64,000 bases of DNA from the NCBI RefSeq assembly GCF_053078305.1, contig NZ_CP166879.1. The stretch is one strand, 5' to 3'. Position numbers: made by a program. The stretch's first letter is position 1, and each line of letters begins with the position of its first letter. This document shows, piece after piece, positions 45,001-51,000 of this stretch.

Positions 45001-48000
45001 CTTCCTGGTACACTCTCGCGTACTCTGCTGCAATTTTTACCCTGGTGGTCGGGTCTAGCTGTAACAATTGCTCCTGTATCCAGTCCCGATCAGCATCACA
45101 GTACTGATCGGGCATAACCGTTTTGATTTGCCTGTTCACTCACACCTCCGATGGAGGGTTATCAGGCTGTTTGCCTTACATGAAGCGGAATACCATCTTC
45201 CATGTTTGGGTAGTCATGCGGGTTTAGTTCATGGGGAGTTACATTCCAGTCTGTAGCTTTTGCCCATTCAATGGCTTTCCGCCCCTGAGGCATGTATCTC
45301 CCTGTAATAACCCCACTGACAAATCCCTGAGAAACTCCAACAATCGCCGCAAAATCGGCTTGTCTGATAGAGCTTTGTCTCAAGTACTCGTCAAGAGTCA
45401 TAGAGATCCTCCCATTTCAATTTTTCGATATTAGCTTACCTGATTTAAATGTCAATAGGCTAGCTATTTGATAAATATTTGTGTTGCTAATAAAATCGGA
45501 GGCACTATGACGAAGAAAATTACGATTACTGACAAAGACATCCAGAATGCTGAACGACTGCGCAAAATCTGGGATGAAAAACGGAAACAGCTATCCCTCA
45601 GCCAGGAAAAAGCCGCAGATATCCTCGGCTTCAAAACGCAGGGGGCTGTTAGTCAGTTATTGAACGCAAAAATTGCGTTAAATACTGAAAATACCCTTAA
45701 GTTTGCGGCTTTATTACAGGTTCCTGCGGAAGAAATTAATCCAGATCTGAGTGATTTGTTACGCAGTATTCGTACGCACACACCGGGAAACAGGCGTAAC
45801 CTGTTCGAGAAATATTACGAATATCCATTACTCTCCTGCGTGCAGGCTGGCGCATTCTCAATGGATGATTTTTCGTACACCGCAAAGGATGCGATTAAGT
45901 GGATCTCCACCACCACAAAAGCCAGTGACAGGTCGTTCTGGCTGGAGGTCAAGGGGCATTCAATGACCGCGCCACAGGGAGGTAAACCCAGCTTCCCTGA
46001 AGGTATGCTGATACTTGTTGACCCTGAACGGGAAATCGAGGATGGCGATTTTTGCGTGGCCCGAATGAACGGCGATGAATTCACCTTCAAACGGTTCATT
46101 CGTGAGAGCGGTAAAGCGTACCTGGAGCCACTCAACCCACGATTCGACATGATTGAGTGTAACGAAAACTGCCAGTTTGTCGGAAAGGTCATAAAGTCGC
46201 AGTGGAATGATGAGACTTTTGATTGAACTCACAGGATGATATCAATAACCTTGCAGGGAGGCTATTTTATTTCCTCTTTCAGCGAAAAATCTCCGAGAAC
46301 CCTCGCCCAATGCGGGCGGGGAGCAGTCGCAATCAAGTGAGCCATAAATGAACAAAGACAAATCCTTGACACAACAAGTGGAAGAAATACTTAGCAAGCA
46401 AAAAGTTAGCGAGCAAGGAAAAATGATTCAATCATTAAAGAACATGGGCTTGATCAACAAGCCTGTTTTTACTTTGGCTTATGGACCAGATATTACAACC
46501 TGCCAAATGCACCAATAACAAAACCCGGCCTTGGTGCCGGGTTTTGTTTGCCTCCTGCTCGCCCCACCATTTACCAGTGCGCCGTAAATTCCCCATTCTT
46601 CGGCGGTGAGGATGTCAAAGACGAAGGGAACATTAAGCCCCTGAGTGATGGTTGACTTCTTTTTCCAGCGCCTTATTAACAAAGGCGTTCAGTGATAAAT
46701 CTTCTTCCATCGCCATTTCAGCGACCCGACGATGCAGTTCTGGATCAAGTCTGACGTTAAACACACCTTTAAACGGGGTATCAGGCTCCTTTCCATCCTC
46801 CACACAAGACTGTAAATACAGCTCAACCGATGTCTTAAACTCCTGTTCCAGTTCAGCTAATGTAGAAGCCTCATAAGTTACCAGGTCTCGAATAAACGCC
46901 AGTTTTCCGTACAGGATATTATTTTCAAAATCTGGTTCTACTGTACCTAAATATCCTTTATATTTTAGATGCTTCATAATACCCCAGCCTCTTTCAGATT
47001 CTGTTTAATCGCTTTCAGCGTTCCACCTTTAATATAACTTTCTGGATGTGGGCGATGCATTAATATGGTGTGGTTGATTTCAGCATTGAAAAACCGCACT
47101 CTTGAGCCCTGCATTTCCTTTTTGACATATCCCAGAGAGGAAAACAAAACGACCAGCTCATCCCATTCAAACGTTTTTTTACTGTTTAAAAACTTTTCCA
47201 GTAGCTTATCTGCTTTCCCCATACCCACATAATCTCATCTTCGCTACATTGCAACTAATTATAGTTACAGGCAGTGTTTTTGTCAAAAGCCACCAAGCCC
47301 GCTGGGTTCTCTTTGACTGTTCGCTGCTTTTCCTGGTGTTATCCGGGGGCTTTTCCCTCACGCCAAATCTCACACAGAGTAACCGGCCTCAGCGTCGGTT
47401 TTTCTTTGCGCATCCTCCATAACTCACCACCTGCATTATCCTCGCTTATATTTTTTACATAAATAAATTAATCTAAAAATCAATCACATAGATTAAAATT
47501 AAATCAAATTATTAGCCTTACTATTGACTATGATAAGTTGAGCTTATTATATTTTACCCAAGCCAGAAACATCGCGCCCTTACACAGGGCTACATAAATC
47601 AGTCGTACGGCGCGACTTAACCCGCCGCAAAATGCTCTTTAACAATCTGGAGCTTTACAGCGTCAATGACCTGTTTAGACCCCTACACGTAAACGTGCTG
47701 TATCATCGGGTGCGATCCGGTCGATGAGAGAGTATCCCCGCGCGAGAGCGAGAACGGCGTGAGAACGGGCAACACTGGCAGGAAGTTGGCGCTGACCAAT
47801 ACAGGGAATGTTTTGGGGTGCTGAGAGTGCCACCAAAGCGTTGCGTGAAATAGCGATGCCGTCCCAACCCTGTAGCAAAAGTAATGATTGGATACCATAA
47901 GACCAATCACAATCATTCTACGATTACCTATGCCGCACAAAGTTATTTTTTCAACACAATGTTCAAGTTTTCAACTGACTTCTTTATACTACCGCGTAGG

Positions 48001-51000
48001 TAGTGCTATCAAATAGACTATGTAAGCACTTCATGAAGGATGTCGGTCGAACTGAACGGGAAACTTAATGATGCGAAAAATACTCAGGACAACTCTTATC
48101 GCTACAATTTTGTTTTCACCAATAGTACAGGCGGAGTGGTATACAGTAACAGACGACGATTTGTTCTCTGATGGTCACACGGCGCTGATGGTAGGAAAAA
48201 AAACATCAAATCCTGAAGAGATTGATAATAACATGATTGCTCTTAATTGTACGCCAAGATCCCTAACATTCTCATTAGTCGAAAAGGACATAGAAGAAGA
48301 AACATCGGCCCCAATTTATTCATTCCCAATAGATATGGCAATAAAAATTGACAAAAATAGTATAATAAGGCTCAACGCAACACTTTCAAGAAGAAACTCA
48401 ATGCTAACACAAGCTATCACTGAACGTACTGATACTGAAATGAAGAAAATTAAAATTATACTCAGGCAACTCAGAGATGCTAAACATAGAGTGAGGGTCG
48501 GGATTCGACGCCAAGACATCACACGAGAAGATGCCATGACATATTCTTTCAGCTTTAATGTATTAGGCTCCACTGGTGCTGTTAATAAATTTATCACTGC
48601 ATGCGGAATAAAGCTGTAAACATGTTTCTGCCAAAGCAACCTTGACAAATCCACATCGACGGGGATATATTCCACCTCATGGTGCTGAACACACCTTGCA
48701 AAGCGGAGACCGCACCCGTCAGTCATGCGGCTTTTTTATGTCCATTTTTCAGATATGGTCGGGTAGCGCGTATACCGAAAAACAGCCGAAAGGTTAAGGA
48801 TACGGGCCGACTTTGCACGGTGTTCAAGTACCTGGCCGCCCTGCTGAACACAGGGCTATCTGAACAAATGCAAAGGACATAAAATATGAACTCTCAACTC
48901 ATCCCCGTATTCAACGGCACTATCGACAACGAAACTACCCTGTTCTGTAATGCCCGTGATTTACACGCGTTTCTCGAAGTCGGAAAAGACTTTTCCACGT
49001 GGATACGAATCCGCATCTCCGAGTATGAATTTACAGAAAACCAAGATTTTATTTTGCTCCCCAAAACGGGGGAGCAAAGAAAAGGTAGAGGCGGTCACAA
49101 CCGCAAGGACTACCACCTCACTCTCGATACAGCCAAAGAGCTTGCGATGGTTGAACGTAACGAAAAAGGCCGCCAGATACGCCGATACTTCATCGAGTGC
49201 GAAAAGAAACTTCGCCAGAGCCTTTTACCTGCACCAATGAACATCAACTACCCTCTCTCGTGGTTCTCAGATAACCATCCCTACGCCACGATGAACTATG
49301 TTGATCGCAAAGTTATCAGCCTTGATGCTTCCGTGCTCTTCGATATGCCAAGCCCAACTATGCGCATCCTCAATGAGCTACACAGCAAGGGCTATAACGT
49401 TGACGCCGCTGTCGCCGAATTTAACGCCTTCAAACATCTGACGGAAGAAATGCGCCGTAAATTGCTGGATATTTCCCGCACATCGGAAAAGTCTTCCCGC
49501 TTTGGTTTCAACGTTAATCTTTAATTAACCCCATCCCCGATCACATATCGGGGATTAAATTAAATATCTGGATTAATTAACCGGAGGATTTGTCATGCTC
49601 AAACCTCACTACGGAACCGCATTAGTTTCTCGCGAGGAAGTTAAACCCGGCACTGCAATTCTTTACAACGGGCGTTATTACATGGCGTCAGCTAACGTTA
49701 ATAATGCACTTTACGCACATTCACTGATTGAAAAAATTCGCATTATCTCAGATGCAATAGAAGTTTACCTGAACAATAAAGGCCAACCGTTAATCTCACC
49801 AGCCTGAAAGGAAATATCATGCTCAATCAAGAAATTAATATCAATGTAAAAAGCGTCATAACGCCAGCGAAAACGATAATGGGAGAAGTTTTTATGGATG
49901 ATAAAATCATCGCCTATTTTGTCGTCCTGCCTGATGAGGCTATTTCTGTTATTGATACGGAAGGCAATGTTATGTTTATCGCGGAACATCCAGAAGACAT
50001 CGCATTACAGGCCGCTGCATATTTCTTCGCTAAGGAGCAAGAGGAAGAATGTAACTGCCCTGTCTGTCAGCTTTCCCGACAAATTAATTTAATGCATTAA
50101 CCGGAATCAGGAGTTCCGCCATGAACGCATACCTCACCTGCGACCGCATAGAGGAGCGTCGCTGGGCTAATCAGCAAATTCAGGATGAAAAGGATAAATG
50201 GATTGATGATCGGGCGCAGGAGCTTATCAGCATGTTCCCCGATAAACCATTGCTTATGAGCAGCCTTTTTTTACCCAAAGAAGCCCAACTGGCACTCACT
50301 GGCGAAAAAGCTGAAGAGGCGTACAACGATTATATCTCAGCGATCGCCTATGCTCGGGCGGAAGAAGAATGGGAGAGAAAATTCTCCCCCTGTCCTTTCT
50401 GATTTTCAGGACCAAAAAAATGTTCGATATCGTTGAATTTGTTAAGCAGCAGGAGCGCTTTTTCTGCGAGGCATTAACTGAACCAACGCTGACATGGGCG
50501 AAGGAAAGTCAGTTTGCAATTCAGCAATTCCAGAAAAATGCCTTTCTGGCTGACACAGCACGGGGAAATCTGTCCAGCGCACAGAACGCTATCATCAATG
50601 TTGCCGCTATAGGCATAACCCTGAACCCGGCCAGCAAGCTGGCGTATCTGGTCCCACGAAAAAAGGCTGTATGCCTGGATATCAGTTATATGGGGCTTCT
50701 GCATCTGGCACAGGTCACAGGAGCCATTCAGTGGGGGCAATGCAAACTTGTTTACGAGAAGGACATTTACGAGTCCAACGGTATTGACTGCGCCCCCACG
50801 CACAAATACAACCCATTCGTAGACAGGGGCGCACGCATTGGCGGTTATTGTGTCGTAAAAACATCCGAAGGCGACTATCTGACCGAAGAGATGAGCAACA
50901 GGGAAATCGAGGTCATCAGGGCGTGCAGCAAAGCCGGAAATAACGGAGGAAGTAGCCCGTGGGATAGCTTCCCCGACGAAATGGCCAGAAAAGCCATTGT

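What the first reader, a model, noticed from the sequence alone, without database searches (positions are those of the whole stretch)
47229..48067. Long untranslated pL leader with rrn-type boxA and no N-like gene
About 840 bp separates hicA from the first early-left ORF. It contains a pL-like promoter (47524-47553) and, ~80 nt downstream, an exact rrn-type boxA (tgctctttaacaat, 47633-47646) preceded by GC-rich hairpins, but no plus-strand ORF of 60 aa or more that could be an Arg-rich N protein. Early-left antitermination may therefore be RNA- or host-factor-based, or use a very small or unrecognised antiterminator.
Basis: partly seen in the sequence, partly recalled or inferred. Interest (0 to 1): 0.55.

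Follow-up and report, generated by a model that had tools for sequence, protein, structure and literature searches.

The report
Conserved boxA-linked RNA in N-less prophage leader
The early-left promoter of this E. coli prophage is followed not by an N gene but by an exact ribosomal-type boxA fused to a 135-nt folded RNA, conserved in phi80 and the O104:H4 Shiga-toxin phage, which probably lets the phage read through terminators without N.

Summary
A pL-like promoter (47524-47553), two leader hairpins, an exact rrn-type boxA (47633-47645, the only exact copy in 64 kb) and no N-sized ORF before 48068 are all present.

BoxA plus a six-helix domain (47633-47795) form one conserved unit. It is 94-98% identical in phi80, HK225, Klebsiella KO-TP1 and the Oslovirus/Eru1 Stx2a phages, and 78% identical in Edwardsiella Edno5. 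More diverged copies lie in Enterobacter, Citrobacter, Kosakonia, Xenorhabdus and Arsenophonus genomes.

- **Structure:** compensatory changes support the fold (88-95% of cells paired against 30-45% in slid controls; 15-16 pairs changed on both sides).
- **Not catalogued:** nothing in Rfam 15 matches.
- **Copy number:** one copy per phage, always just after a pL-type promoter.
- **Downstream gene:** it differs from phage to phage and is never N-like.
- **Positional analogy:** HK639 carries its annotated put-like antiterminator RNA at the same place.

The most likely function is an N-independent, cis-acting antitermination cassette that uses host Nus factors. That function is inferred, not shown. 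GenBank already marks the phi80 boxA and one hairpin as a "putative nutL", so I rate it a new variant of a known kind.

The parts
47258..47286 (-). Perfect sigma-70 consensus promoter (TTGACA-17-TATAAT) pointing at hicA/hicB. It is not part of the pL leader.
   Evidence: Promoter scan, 12 of 12 matches. hicA and hicB ORFs at 46974-47228 and 46633-46977 on the minus strand.
47317..47400 (+). Remnant of the 3' end of an upstream gene (47317-47382), followed by a terminator-like hairpin with a T-run (47381-47400). Another terminator-like hairpin lies at 47330-47349. This would be the end of the cI-side transcript, upstream of pL.
   Evidence: 96.6% identity to Lyz12581Vzw, where the match starts inside CDS Lys12581Vzw_42 (locus 3186-3566; match from 3501). 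Terminator scan.
47507..47527 (.). Operator-like site (TCAATAG half-site) overlapping the -35 hexamer of pL. Similar sites lie in the cI-cro intergenic region (45452-45471) and at 44650-44670.
   Evidence: Inverted repeat I3; palindrome in the OR region. That a repressor binds here is inferred.
47524..47553 (+). pL-like early-left promoter, TTGACT-18-TATATT. Transcription would start near 47560.
   Evidence: Promoter scan, 10 of 12. It is homologous to the promoter region of Lyz12581Vzw. Family members have a sigma-70-like promoter whose -10 ends mostly 40-80 nt before boxA.
47576..47590 (+). Leader hairpin 1 (GCCC-UUACACA-GGGC), shared with Oslovirus Stx phages.
   Evidence: Sequence, fold, alignment.
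47599..47622 (+). Hairpin homologous to the first (5') hairpin of the HK022 and HK639 putL RNAs. UCAGUCGUACGGCGCGACUUAAC here corresponds to AUAGACGAACGGCGCGUCUUUAAAC in HK022. Only this fragment of put is present.
   Evidence: Alignment A6; HK022 and HK639 sequences. AGACG/CGUCU versus AGUCG/CGACU is a compensatory swap.
47633..47645 (+). boxA, UGCUCUUUAACAA. From my own memory (not checked here) it equals the E. coli rrn leader boxA. It fits the published gamma-proteobacterial consensus GYTCTTTAANA.
   Evidence: Unique exact match in the window. Consensus from PMC5725501. Conserved as the 5' end of the family in all 91 unique variants, although TTTAACAA was fixed by the search pattern.
47658..47794 (+). 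Six-helix RNA domain. P4, P5 and P6 are three hairpins closed by P3. Helices (5' arm / 3' arm):
- P1: 47658-47666 / 47786-47794
- P2: 47670-47675 / 47777-47782
- P3: 47681-47683 / 47767-47769
- P4: 47686-47689 / 47694-47697
- P5: 47703-47712 / 47718-47727
- P6: 47738-47740 / 47755-47757, with a GAGA-capped extension at 47741-47750
   Evidence: Covariance model R1 hits 47633-47795 at 169.6 bits, E 5e-37. Covariation counts. The single-sequence MFE reproduces P1, P2, P5 and the inner P6 hairpin, and two of the three P3 pairs, z = -1.96.
47796..47842 (+). Conserved 3' extension of the leader. It is shared with phi80 (to about 47820) and with Oslovirus phages (to 47842). Role unknown.
   Evidence: Match boundaries; alignment.
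47860..47999 (+). C-rich, G-poor untranslated stretch. It is a plausible Rho loading (rut-like) region ahead of the first ORF.
   Evidence: GC skew of -0.31 to -0.43 in 80-nt windows. Rho use is inferred.
48068..48619 (+). First early-left ORF: 183 aa, hydrophobic N-terminus, PHROG 19473 of unknown function. It is not N-like.
   Evidence: ORF list; PHROG search.

Best explanation
The core of the finding is a cis-acting RNA cassette (47633-47795) transcribed from the prophage's CI-controlled early-left promoter. It consists of a consensus boxA joined to a conserved six-helix domain.

Proposed mechanism, all steps inferred:
1. As the nascent RNA emerges, boxA binds host NusB-NusE(S10).
2. The adjacent folded domain helps assemble or anchor a termination-resistant elongation complex. 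It could do so by contacting RNA polymerase or further Nus factors, taking the part that N plays at lambda nut or that the two stems play in put.
3. The modified polymerase then crosses the roughly 270 nt of untranslated, C-rich leader and the early-left operon (Ant-like gene, kil, gam, recT, exo) without Rho-dependent termination.
4. In relatives it would also cross the intrinsic terminators that lie downstream.

No phage N protein is needed.

Shown here: the sequence features, their conservation, the RNA fold, the single copy per phage, the position after pL, and the absence of any N-like gene.
For: - **boxA:** exact and unique in the window. It fits the functional consensus GYTCTTTAANA (PMC5725501).
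- **Conservation across mosaic phages:** boxA plus about 150 nt is nearly invariant in phages whose immunity regions and downstream genes differ: phi80, HK225, KO-TP1, P13374, Lyz12581Vzw and Edno5.
- **Number of variants:** 91 unique variants from viral contigs and phage records.
- **Host range:** covariance-model-confirmed members occur in nine Enterobacterales genera across the scans.
- **Fold, hand alignment:** 88.2% of cells paired against 33-44% when slid. 16 of 36 pairs change on both sides. Covariation score 0.316 against 0.153, with 0 of 500 shuffles reaching it.
- **Fold, model-based alignment with extra genomes:** 95.1% paired and 15 of 28 pairs changed on both sides.
- **Copy number:** one copy in the whole HK225 genome, in the early and late half of the phi80 genome, in the fetched 6-8 kb immunity regions of four other phages, and in the window. 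There is no copy in the pR operon.
- **Promoter proximity:** a sigma-70-like promoter ends mostly 40-80 nt upstream of boxA.
- **No conserved protein partner:** the first downstream genes fall in unrelated PHROG families (19473, 25091, 5305, 995, or none). None is in phrog_271, the N family that lambda N hits. phi80 'N' homologs follow the element in only 8 of 129 loci and gp40-like genes in 14 of 129.
- **Cassette swap:** in HK639 the first ~55 nt of the pL leader are homologous to phi80's. The annotated 'putL-like antiterminator RNA' then replaces the boxA domain. The window even keeps a put-like first hairpin next to boxA.
- **Need for antitermination:** there is a C-rich, G-poor untranslated stretch before the first ORF. 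Terminator-like sites lie downstream of the element in P13374 (3904-3919) and phi80 (3648-3666, which GenBank annotates as tL1A).
- **Precedent:** boxA-dependent protection of long untranslated RNA from Rho is established for rRNA and for CRISPR arrays (PMC7665894).
Against: - No functional data of any kind bear on this element.
- From my own knowledge, rrn-type boxA/Nus complexes suppress Rho-dependent terminators but act poorly on intrinsic ones. The domain's contribution is therefore pure inference.
- In the suhB leader, boxA acts negatively rather than positively (PMC5725501).
- The window shows no strong plus-strand intrinsic terminator between pL and 56198. Processive antitermination may not be strictly required here.
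- The absence of a second copy in the pR operon differs from both lambda and HK022.
- phi80 is annotated with an N gene, which might be a genuine partner in that phage.
- TTTAACAA, GACCC and GATCCGG(TC) were fixed by my search patterns, so their invariance is not evidence.
- The first alignment was hand-fitted to the structure.
Confidence: 0.5

Rival explanations
1. It is a nut-type site. The folded RNA is the binding site of a phage-encoded, N-like antiterminator that has not been recognised. That protein could be encoded elsewhere in the genome, could be very small, or could differ between phages (phi80 'N' and HK225 gp40 would be examples).
For: - The lambda paradigm places nutL between pL and N.
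- GenBank JX871397 annotates the phi80 boxA and the P4 hairpin as 'putative nutL', and the next gene as N.
- P6 carries a GNRA (GAGA) tetraloop, reminiscent of boxB.
- HK225 gp40 has a basic N-terminal stretch, PKKRQKPRKQ.
- The window has a 100-aa ORF after cro with an Arg-rich segment.
Against: - The RNA is almost invariant while the adjacent gene is not. phi80-N-like genes follow it in 8 of 129 loci and gp40-like genes in 14 of 129.
- phi80 'N' gives no BLASTP alignment with lambda N even at E <= 100, and sits in an unannotated PHROG family.
- None of these proteins has a homolog in the window.
- The GAGA-capped extension is absent from several subtypes.
- N proteins and their nut sites normally co-vary between phages. 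Here the site is conserved across genera, which fits a conserved host partner better.
- There is no nutR-like second copy.
Confidence: 0.2
2. boxA alone provides protection from Rho for the long untranslated leader. The folded domain does something unrelated, such as acting as an RNase III or RNase E processing and stability element, a source of a trans-acting small RNA, or a translational or ligand-sensing regulator.
For: - From my own knowledge, boxA alone suffices for anti-Rho activity in rrn reporter constructs. It also works for CRISPR arrays (PMC7665894).
- P1 plus P2 form a long, interrupted helix that could be a processing site.
- Some family members have a Shine-Dalgarno sequence and a 2-3-codon mini-ORF directly after the domain, hinting at translational coupling.
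Against: - boxA and the domain are inherited as one unit with a short linker of fixed length class in every variant. They were never found apart in the loci examined.
- At the same site HK639 carries an annotated put-like antiterminator RNA.
- No Rfam family for riboswitches, ribozymes or sRNAs matches, even at E <= 5.
Confidence: 0.15
3. The cassette is a negative element. The boxA/Nus complex, or the fold, attenuates early-left expression, as boxA does in the suhB leader. This would limit toxic kil and gam expression or stabilise lysogeny.
For: - There is a precedent for repressive boxA action (PMC5725501).
- In phi80-type leaders the hairpin plus U-rich boxA scores as terminator-like.
- A C-rich, rut-like stretch follows the element.
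Against: - The suhB mechanism needs boxA close to the start codon, so that translation is blocked. Here the first ORF is 420 nt away.
- Phages need early-left genes expressed, and the lambda, HK022 and HK639 elements at this position are all positive.
- The window's boxA is not preceded by a terminator-like hairpin with a U-run.
Confidence: 0.07

Closest known systems
Lambda-type nut site (boxA + boxB) with N protein
   Same: It lies between pL and the early-left genes. It begins with a boxA that should bind NusB-NusE. GenBank annotates the homologous phi80 stretch as 'putative nutL'.
   Different: - It has no N gene and no 15-nt boxB hairpin a few nucleotides after boxA.
- It has a 135-nt multi-helix domain instead.
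- boxA is the full rrn consensus rather than lambda's shorter CGCUCUUA (lambda sequence from my own knowledge).
- There is only one copy per phage, so no nutR.
- The RNA is conserved across genera, whereas nut and N co-diversify.
put RNAs of HK022 and HK639 (factor-independent antiterminator RNAs)
   Same: It occupies the same genomic slot. In HK639 the put-like RNA replaces this cassette after a shared leader start. It is a structured cis RNA in phages without N. The window keeps a homolog of put's first hairpin at 47599-47622.
   Different: - put is about 70 nt with two stems, has no boxA and needs no Nus factors (PMC9378689).
- HK022 has both putL and putR.
- The covariance model of the present family finds nothing in the searched early regions of HK022 or HK639.
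- The fold here is a junction of three hairpins closed by three stacked helices.
rrn leader antitermination signal (boxB-boxA-boxC) and boxA upstream of CRISPR arrays
   Same: The boxA is identical to the rrn boxA as I recall it (not checked here). A hairpin precedes it, as boxB does in rrn. It heads a long untranslated RNA that would otherwise be a Rho target (PMC7665894, PMC5725501).
   Different: It sits in a phage early operon. No GU-rich boxC was seen after boxA. It is followed by a conserved folded domain with no counterpart in rrn or CRISPR leaders. Whether SuhB or S4 take part is unknown.

Membership tests
lambda-type nut/N antitermination | boxA sequence on the nascent early transcript | tested here: met
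   UGCUCUUUAACAA at 47633-47645, unique in the window. It fits GYTCTTTAANA.
lambda-type nut/N antitermination | boxB: a short hairpin with a GNRA-like loop a few nucleotides 3' of boxA | tested here: not met
   The first conserved hairpin after boxA (P4) starts 53 nt downstream. Its loop varies (UAAA, AAAA, UUUAU and others). The GAGA-capped P6 extension is missing in several subtypes.
lambda-type nut/N antitermination | N gene (Arg-rich-motif protein) downstream of nutL | tested here: not met
   No plus-strand ORF longer than 43 aa before 48068. The early-left ORFs hit no N PHROG, while lambda N hits phrog_271. tblastn is negative.
lambda-type nut/N antitermination | Second site (nutR) in the pR operon | tested here: not met
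   The covariance model finds one copy in the window, in the whole HK225 genome and in phi80 22-46 kb. There is no second boxA within 2 mismatches in the pR region.
HK022-type put RNA | Sequence or profile similarity to putL/putR (two-stem RNA of about 70 nt) | tested here: not met
   Only the first hairpin (47599-47622) is homologous. The rest of put is absent. Model R1 gives no hit in HK022 or HK639.
HK022-type put RNA | Acts without host factors, through the RNAP beta' zinc-binding domain | not testable with these tools
   This needs rpoC (such as Y75N) genetics or in vitro transcription.
rrn-type Nus-factor antitermination signal | Consensus boxA | tested here: met
   It matches the published consensus GYTCTTTAANA. 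Identity to the E. coli rrn boxA rests on my memory of that sequence.
rrn-type Nus-factor antitermination signal | boxB-like hairpin 5' of boxA and GU-rich boxC 3' of it | tested here: inconclusive
   A hairpin directly precedes boxA in the window and in most subtypes, but not in all; L084, L024 and L250 lack a stable one. No GU-rich boxC was apparent in the linker.
rrn-type Nus-factor antitermination signal | [quoted passage not shown] | not testable with these tools
   This needs nus or suhB mutants, or ChIP.
any curated Rfam family | Covariance-model match | tested here: not met
   No match in 47100-48200 even at E <= 5. None reaches gathering score there in the whole-window scan.

The most novel reading that the evidence does not exclude
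boxA plus the six-helix domain may be a third class of lambdoid early antitermination signal, beside N/nut and put. It would be a self-sufficient nascent RNA that turns the host's rRNA-type Nus machinery (or RNA polymerase directly) into a processive antiterminator, able to pass intrinsic as well as Rho-dependent terminators with no phage protein. Its carriers are prophages of Enterobacterales, including the Stx2a phage of the 2011 O104:H4 outbreak. If so, it would explain how N-less 'Eru1'/Oslovirus phages, HK225 and probably phi80 express their early-left genes.
Probability: 0.35. Interest if true: 0.8.

Novelty: new variant of a known kind. Interest (0 to 1): 0.62.

Why it matters
- **An open question becomes testable.** Many lambdoid phages lack a recognisable N gene. 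Published genome papers either note the absence (Eru1/TL-2011c; PMC8044961) or guess at a put-like mechanism (phage LLS; PMC12315714). This element is a concrete candidate with defined helices and a boxA to mutate.
- **Medical relevance.** It sits in the Stx2a phages of O104:H4 and other high-virulence STEC. Early-left expression there (recombination functions, kil, anti-repressor-like genes) bears on induction and toxin output.
- **Transcription biology.** It would be a natural hybrid between the host's rrn boxA system and a phage RNA fold. That would show how far the Nus machinery can be reprogrammed by RNA alone.
- **Annotation.** It would add an RNA family missing from Rfam. It would also call for a re-examination of the phi80 gene annotated as 'N'.

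Tried and rejected
- **Rfam.** The whole window at gathering score and 47100-48200 at E <= 5 give nothing in the region.
- **Second copy.** Covariance-model R1 searches found no nutR-like copy in the window or in other phages.
- **Homology to put.** R1 does not hit HK022 or HK639. Only a 24-nt first-hairpin homology exists, and it lies upstream of boxA.
- **Small ORFs.** Seven short ORFs on both strands within the pL leader, and three in the hicA-pL spacer upstream of the promoter, match no PHROG family. The 31-aa ORF starting inside boxA loses its ATG in phi80-type leaders, so I reject it as coding.
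- **A conserved downstream protein.** All-against-all clustering of ORFs within 6 kb downstream in 129 loci finds only ordinary early-left genes: kil in 73 loci, recT in 65 and gam in 61. About 91 loci have at least 3 kb of downstream sequence. No conserved first gene emerges.
- **phi80 'N' as a lambda N relative.** There is no BLASTP alignment even at E <= 100.
- **Plain MAFFT plus RNAalifold.** This recovered only P2-P5, because indels misalign P1 and P6. I replaced it with an anchor-based hand alignment in which N stands for a gap.
- **Genome-collection scan.** My pattern was too loose: most of the 120 rows were chance matches and the scan was truncated. Only 15 loci passed the covariance model, so the host range given is a lower bound.
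- **Literature.** King et al. 2011 (HK639) and Rotman et al. 2012 (phi80 genome) are not held in the library. I could not check whether they discuss this RNA beyond the GenBank features.

Full report
**1. Context**

The window carries a lambdoid prophage whose immunity region reads as follows:
- a cro-like gene (45162-45401, minus strand);
- a cI-like LexA-family repressor (45468-46226, plus strand);
- hicB and hicA (46633-47228, minus strand);
- the 839-bp gap in question;
- a plus-strand early-left operon: a 183-aa protein of unknown function, an Ant-like protein, Kil, a PHROG-1635 protein, a Gam-like protein, RecT and Exo.

The 24 kb around the finding is 97% identical, over about three quarters of its length, to prophages of STEC strains, including O104:H4 C227-11. 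This is the Oslovirus/'Eru1' type of phage.

**2. Checking the observation**

- The promoter TTGACT-18-TATATT lies at 47524-47553.
- TGCTCTTTAACAAT lies at 47633-47646.
- The 13-nt boxA is the only exact copy in 64 kb. Even at two mismatches the window has no more sites than chance gives.
- Two GC-rich hairpins precede it.
- Downstream of the promoter no plus-strand ORF exceeds 43 aa before the ATG at 48068.

Three corrections apply.
- The first ~290 bp of the gap are not leader. They contain a perfect consensus promoter on the minus strand aimed at hicA (47286-47258). They also contain the last 22 codons of a gene that is intact in phage Lyz12581Vzw (47317-47382) and terminator-like hairpins (47330-47349, 47381-47400). 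The true untranslated leader is about 510 nt.
- A 62-aa plus-strand ORF (47274-47462) does exist, but it lies upstream of the promoter and has no PHROG match.
- TCAATAG half-sites at 47507-47527 overlap the -35 hexamer. Similar sites occur in the cI-cro spacer and at 44650-44670, which fits repressor control of this promoter. That control is inferred.

**3. What is really there: a conserved folded RNA fused to boxA**

*Similarity to known phages.* Searches show that 47547-47842 is 96-98% identical to the stretch after the early-left promoter of Oslovirus Stx2a phages (P13374 of O104:H4, TL-2011c, phi191, Lyz12581Vzw). From boxA onward exactly (47633 to about 47820) it is 93-94% identical to phi80, HK225 and Klebsiella phage KO-TP1. 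A core of it is 78% identical to Edwardsiella phage Edno5.

Flanks on both sides are unrelated. The next genes are a 98-aa 'N' in phi80, a 70-aa gp40 in HK225, a 65-aa protein in KO-TP1, Rha/Ant-like regulators in the Stx phages, and a 183-aa protein here.

Together with the phage records it gave 91 unique variants in at least four subtypes.

*Genome scan.* Screening a truncated genome-collection scan with a covariance model confirmed members in Enterobacter, Escherichia, Citrobacter, Kosakonia, an unclassified Enterobacteriaceae bacterium, four Xenorhabdus species and Candidatus Arsenophonus triatominarum. All are Enterobacterales.

*Frequency in E. coli.* 223 of 5426 complete E. coli genomes carry a close copy.

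**4. The fold**

The consensus structure was derived by comparison.
- boxA is followed by an 11-14-nt linker.
- Helix P1 (9 bp in the window) and helix P2 (6 bp) come next.
- P3 (3-4 bp) closes a junction of three hairpins, P4, P5 and P6.
- P6 is variable and often carries a 3-bp extension capped by a GAGA tetraloop.

*Counts.* On a hand-made structural alignment of 26 representatives, 88.2% of cells form standard pairs, against 33-44% when the partners are slid by 1-3 columns. Sixteen of 36 pairs show changes on both sides. The covariation score is 0.316 against 0.153 in shuffles, with 0 of 500 shuffles reaching it. A covariance-model alignment that adds the more distant genomic members gives 95.1% paired and 15 of 28 pairs with double changes.

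*Examples of compensatory changes.*
- P5: CAUCG/CGAUG, CACCG/CGGUG and CGCCG/CGGCG.
- P1: GCGUC/GGCGC, GCACA/UGUGC and GCGCAC/GUGCGC.
- P6: CCG/CGG, CCU/AGG, CACG/CGUG and CCCC/GGGG.

*Single-sequence folding.* The window copy alone reproduces P1, P2, P5 and the inner P6 hairpin, and two of the three P3 pairs, with z = -1.96.

*Caveats.*
- The motifs TTTAACAA, GACCC and GATCCGG(TC) were fixed by my search patterns, so their invariance means nothing.
- The first alignment was fitted by hand, and P6 was aligned by its outermost pair.
- Related sequences inflate shuffle statistics.

*Coding potential.* Substitutions come as paired changes in helices, not with codon periodicity. The short ORFs on both strands have no family matches. 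The ATG inside boxA is absent in phi80-type leaders. This is RNA, not coding sequence.

Rfam 15 has no match, even at E <= 5.

**5. Anatomy around the element**

- *Copy number.* Covariance model R1 finds exactly one copy in the window (47633-47795, 169.6 bits). It also finds one in the whole HK225 genome, one in the early and late half of phi80, and one in each of the 6-8 kb immunity-region loci fetched from the other four phages. Nothing lies in the pR operon.
- *Promoter distance.* In most members a sigma-70-like promoter ends 40-80 nt upstream of boxA. The distance is 64 nt in phi80-type leaders and 79 nt in the window type.
- *Upstream hairpin.* A hairpin abuts boxA in most subtypes, but not in all.
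- *Downstream in the window.* The RNA stays untranslated for another 270 nt and includes a C-rich, G-poor stretch (GC skew down to -0.43). This is the kind of RNA on which Rho loads (inference).
- *Downstream in relatives.* Terminator-like hairpins follow the element. In P13374 one lies just before the first gene (3904-3919). In phi80 one lies at the end of 'N' and is annotated tL1A in GenBank.
- *Terminators in the window.* The next strong plus-strand intrinsic terminator is only at 56198.

**6. Is there an N after all?**

- No early-left or immunity-proximal ORF hits an N family. Lambda N, run as a control, hits phrog_271.
- phi80 'N' belongs to an unannotated PHROG family and gives no BLASTP alignment with lambda N even at E <= 100.
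- Homologs of phi80 'N' follow the element in 8 of 129 loci and gp40-like proteins in 14 of 129. Neither occurs in the window.
- Clustering all ORFs within 6 kb downstream shows only the usual kil, recT and gam genes as common neighbours.
- Llarena et al. state independently that Eru1 phages lack homologs of N, CII and CIII (PMC8044961).

A conserved RNA with a non-conserved neighbour, kept across genera, fits a conserved host partner (RNA polymerase or Nus factors) better than a phage-specific protein.

**7. The positional argument**

- Lambda has nutL at this spot.
- HK022 has putL starting at the pL transcript start (PMC9378689).
- In HK639 the first ~55 nt of the pL leader are homologous to phi80's. 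Where phi80 continues with a hairpin, boxA and the domain, HK639 continues with its annotated 126-nt 'putL-like antiterminator RNA'.
- The window's own leader is a mosaic. Its second hairpin (47599-47622) is homologous to the first hairpin of put, with a compensatory A/U swap, and sits directly before boxA.
- HK225 is itself a recombinant within helix P1.

These leaders therefore exchange cassettes at one site. The two kinds of occupant whose function is known are both antitermination signals: lambda's nut, and the put RNAs of HK022 and HK639.

**8. Most likely mechanism**

The cassette is an N-independent, cis-acting antitermination signal. The steps below are inferred.
1. boxA recruits NusB-S10. 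boxA-dependent protection of long untranslated RNA from Rho is established for rRNA and CRISPR arrays (PMC7665894). The boxA here fits the functional consensus (PMC5725501).
2. The adjoining domain stabilises or extends the modified elongation complex.
3. Transcription from pL then survives the untranslated leader and, in relatives, the terminators beyond it.

I put about 0.5 on this. The rivals are:
- an unrecognised protein partner, 0.2;
- boxA acting alone while the domain does something else, 0.15;
- a negative, suhB-like attenuator, 0.07.

Each is separable by the reporter, nus/rpoC-mutant and compensatory-mutation experiments listed under next steps.

**9. Comparison with known systems, and novelty**

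- It works like nut, put and the rrn leader, but it is a member of none.
- It lacks boxB, N and a second site, so it is not nut.
- It lacks the put fold and has a boxA, so it is not put.
- It carries a large folded domain unknown in rrn or CRISPR leaders.
- Part of it is already in the record. The phi80 GenBank entry marks the boxA and the 12-nt P4 hairpin as 'putative nutL'.
- I could not read the phi80 genome paper or the HK639 paper. The full-text searches I ran found no description of this RNA.
- I therefore rate it a new variant of a known kind. It is of moderate to good interest, because it offers a concrete, testable answer to how N-less lambdoid phages, including the O104:H4 Stx2a phage, run their early-left operon.

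Noticed in passing
window 48642-48845 (+): An Rfam sRNA-Xcc1 match (48757-48845, 65.9 bits) lies between the 183-aa ORF and the Ant-like ORF. A strong promoter-like site (TTGACA-18-TATATT, 48642-48671) precedes it.
   Followed up: no
window 37847-38060 and 38122-38333 (-): Two tandem copies of the STnc100 sRNA family (199 and 139 bits).
   Followed up: no
window 57692-57910 (+): A promoter-like site (57692-57721) is followed directly by an isrK match (57728-57801) and a C4 antisense RNA match (57827-57910). This looks like a P1/P7-style immunity or anti-Q module inside the same prophage region.
   Followed up: no
window 46633-47286 (-): A hicBA toxin-antitoxin pair with a perfect consensus promoter sits between cI and pL, where lambda carries rexAB. 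It replaced most of a gene whose last 22 codons remain at 47317-47382.
   Followed up: partly
window 44837-45139 (-): The 100-aa ORF just after cro has an arginine-rich stretch (KGNRARRSANTRLRVYVQKYARASR). It falls in PHROG 852 (unknown function) and has no Pfam match. Worth a look as a nucleic-acid-binding protein.
   Followed up: partly
window 44650-44670, 45452-45471, 47507-47527: Three sites share a TCAATAG half-site. They are probably operators of the prophage repressor. The third overlaps the -35 of pL, and the first lies upstream of a 125-aa minus-strand gene.
   Followed up: partly
L021, L025, L033, L024, L074 and other viral-contig loci, immediately 3' of the RNA domain: Several family members have a Shine-Dalgarno sequence and a 2-3-codon mini-ORF directly after helix P1. 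Examples are AGGAGTGATTCCAATGAAGCACTAA and ATGCTTTAG; one variant reads ATGCTTTAACAAAGCG, which resembles a second boxA. The window has none.
   Followed up: no
L004 (HK225) 3001-3163: The HK225 copy is a recombinant. It has the phi80-type 5' arm of P1 and another subtype's 3' arm, and still pairs through G-U wobbles. So a mosaic junction falls inside the RNA.
   Followed up: partly
L003 (phi80) 2983-3010: In phi80-type leaders the hairpin GGCGGACAGCAAGTCGCC followed by the U-rich boxA TGCTTTTTAA scores as an intrinsic-terminator-like site. It could be a pause or attenuation point at boxA.
   Followed up: no
L003 (phi80) 3353-3649: The phi80 gene annotated 'N, similar to lambda N' shows no detectable similarity to lambda N (no BLASTP alignment at E <= 100). 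It has no arginine-rich N-terminus and sits in an unannotated PHROG family. The name appears to rest on position only.
   Followed up: yes
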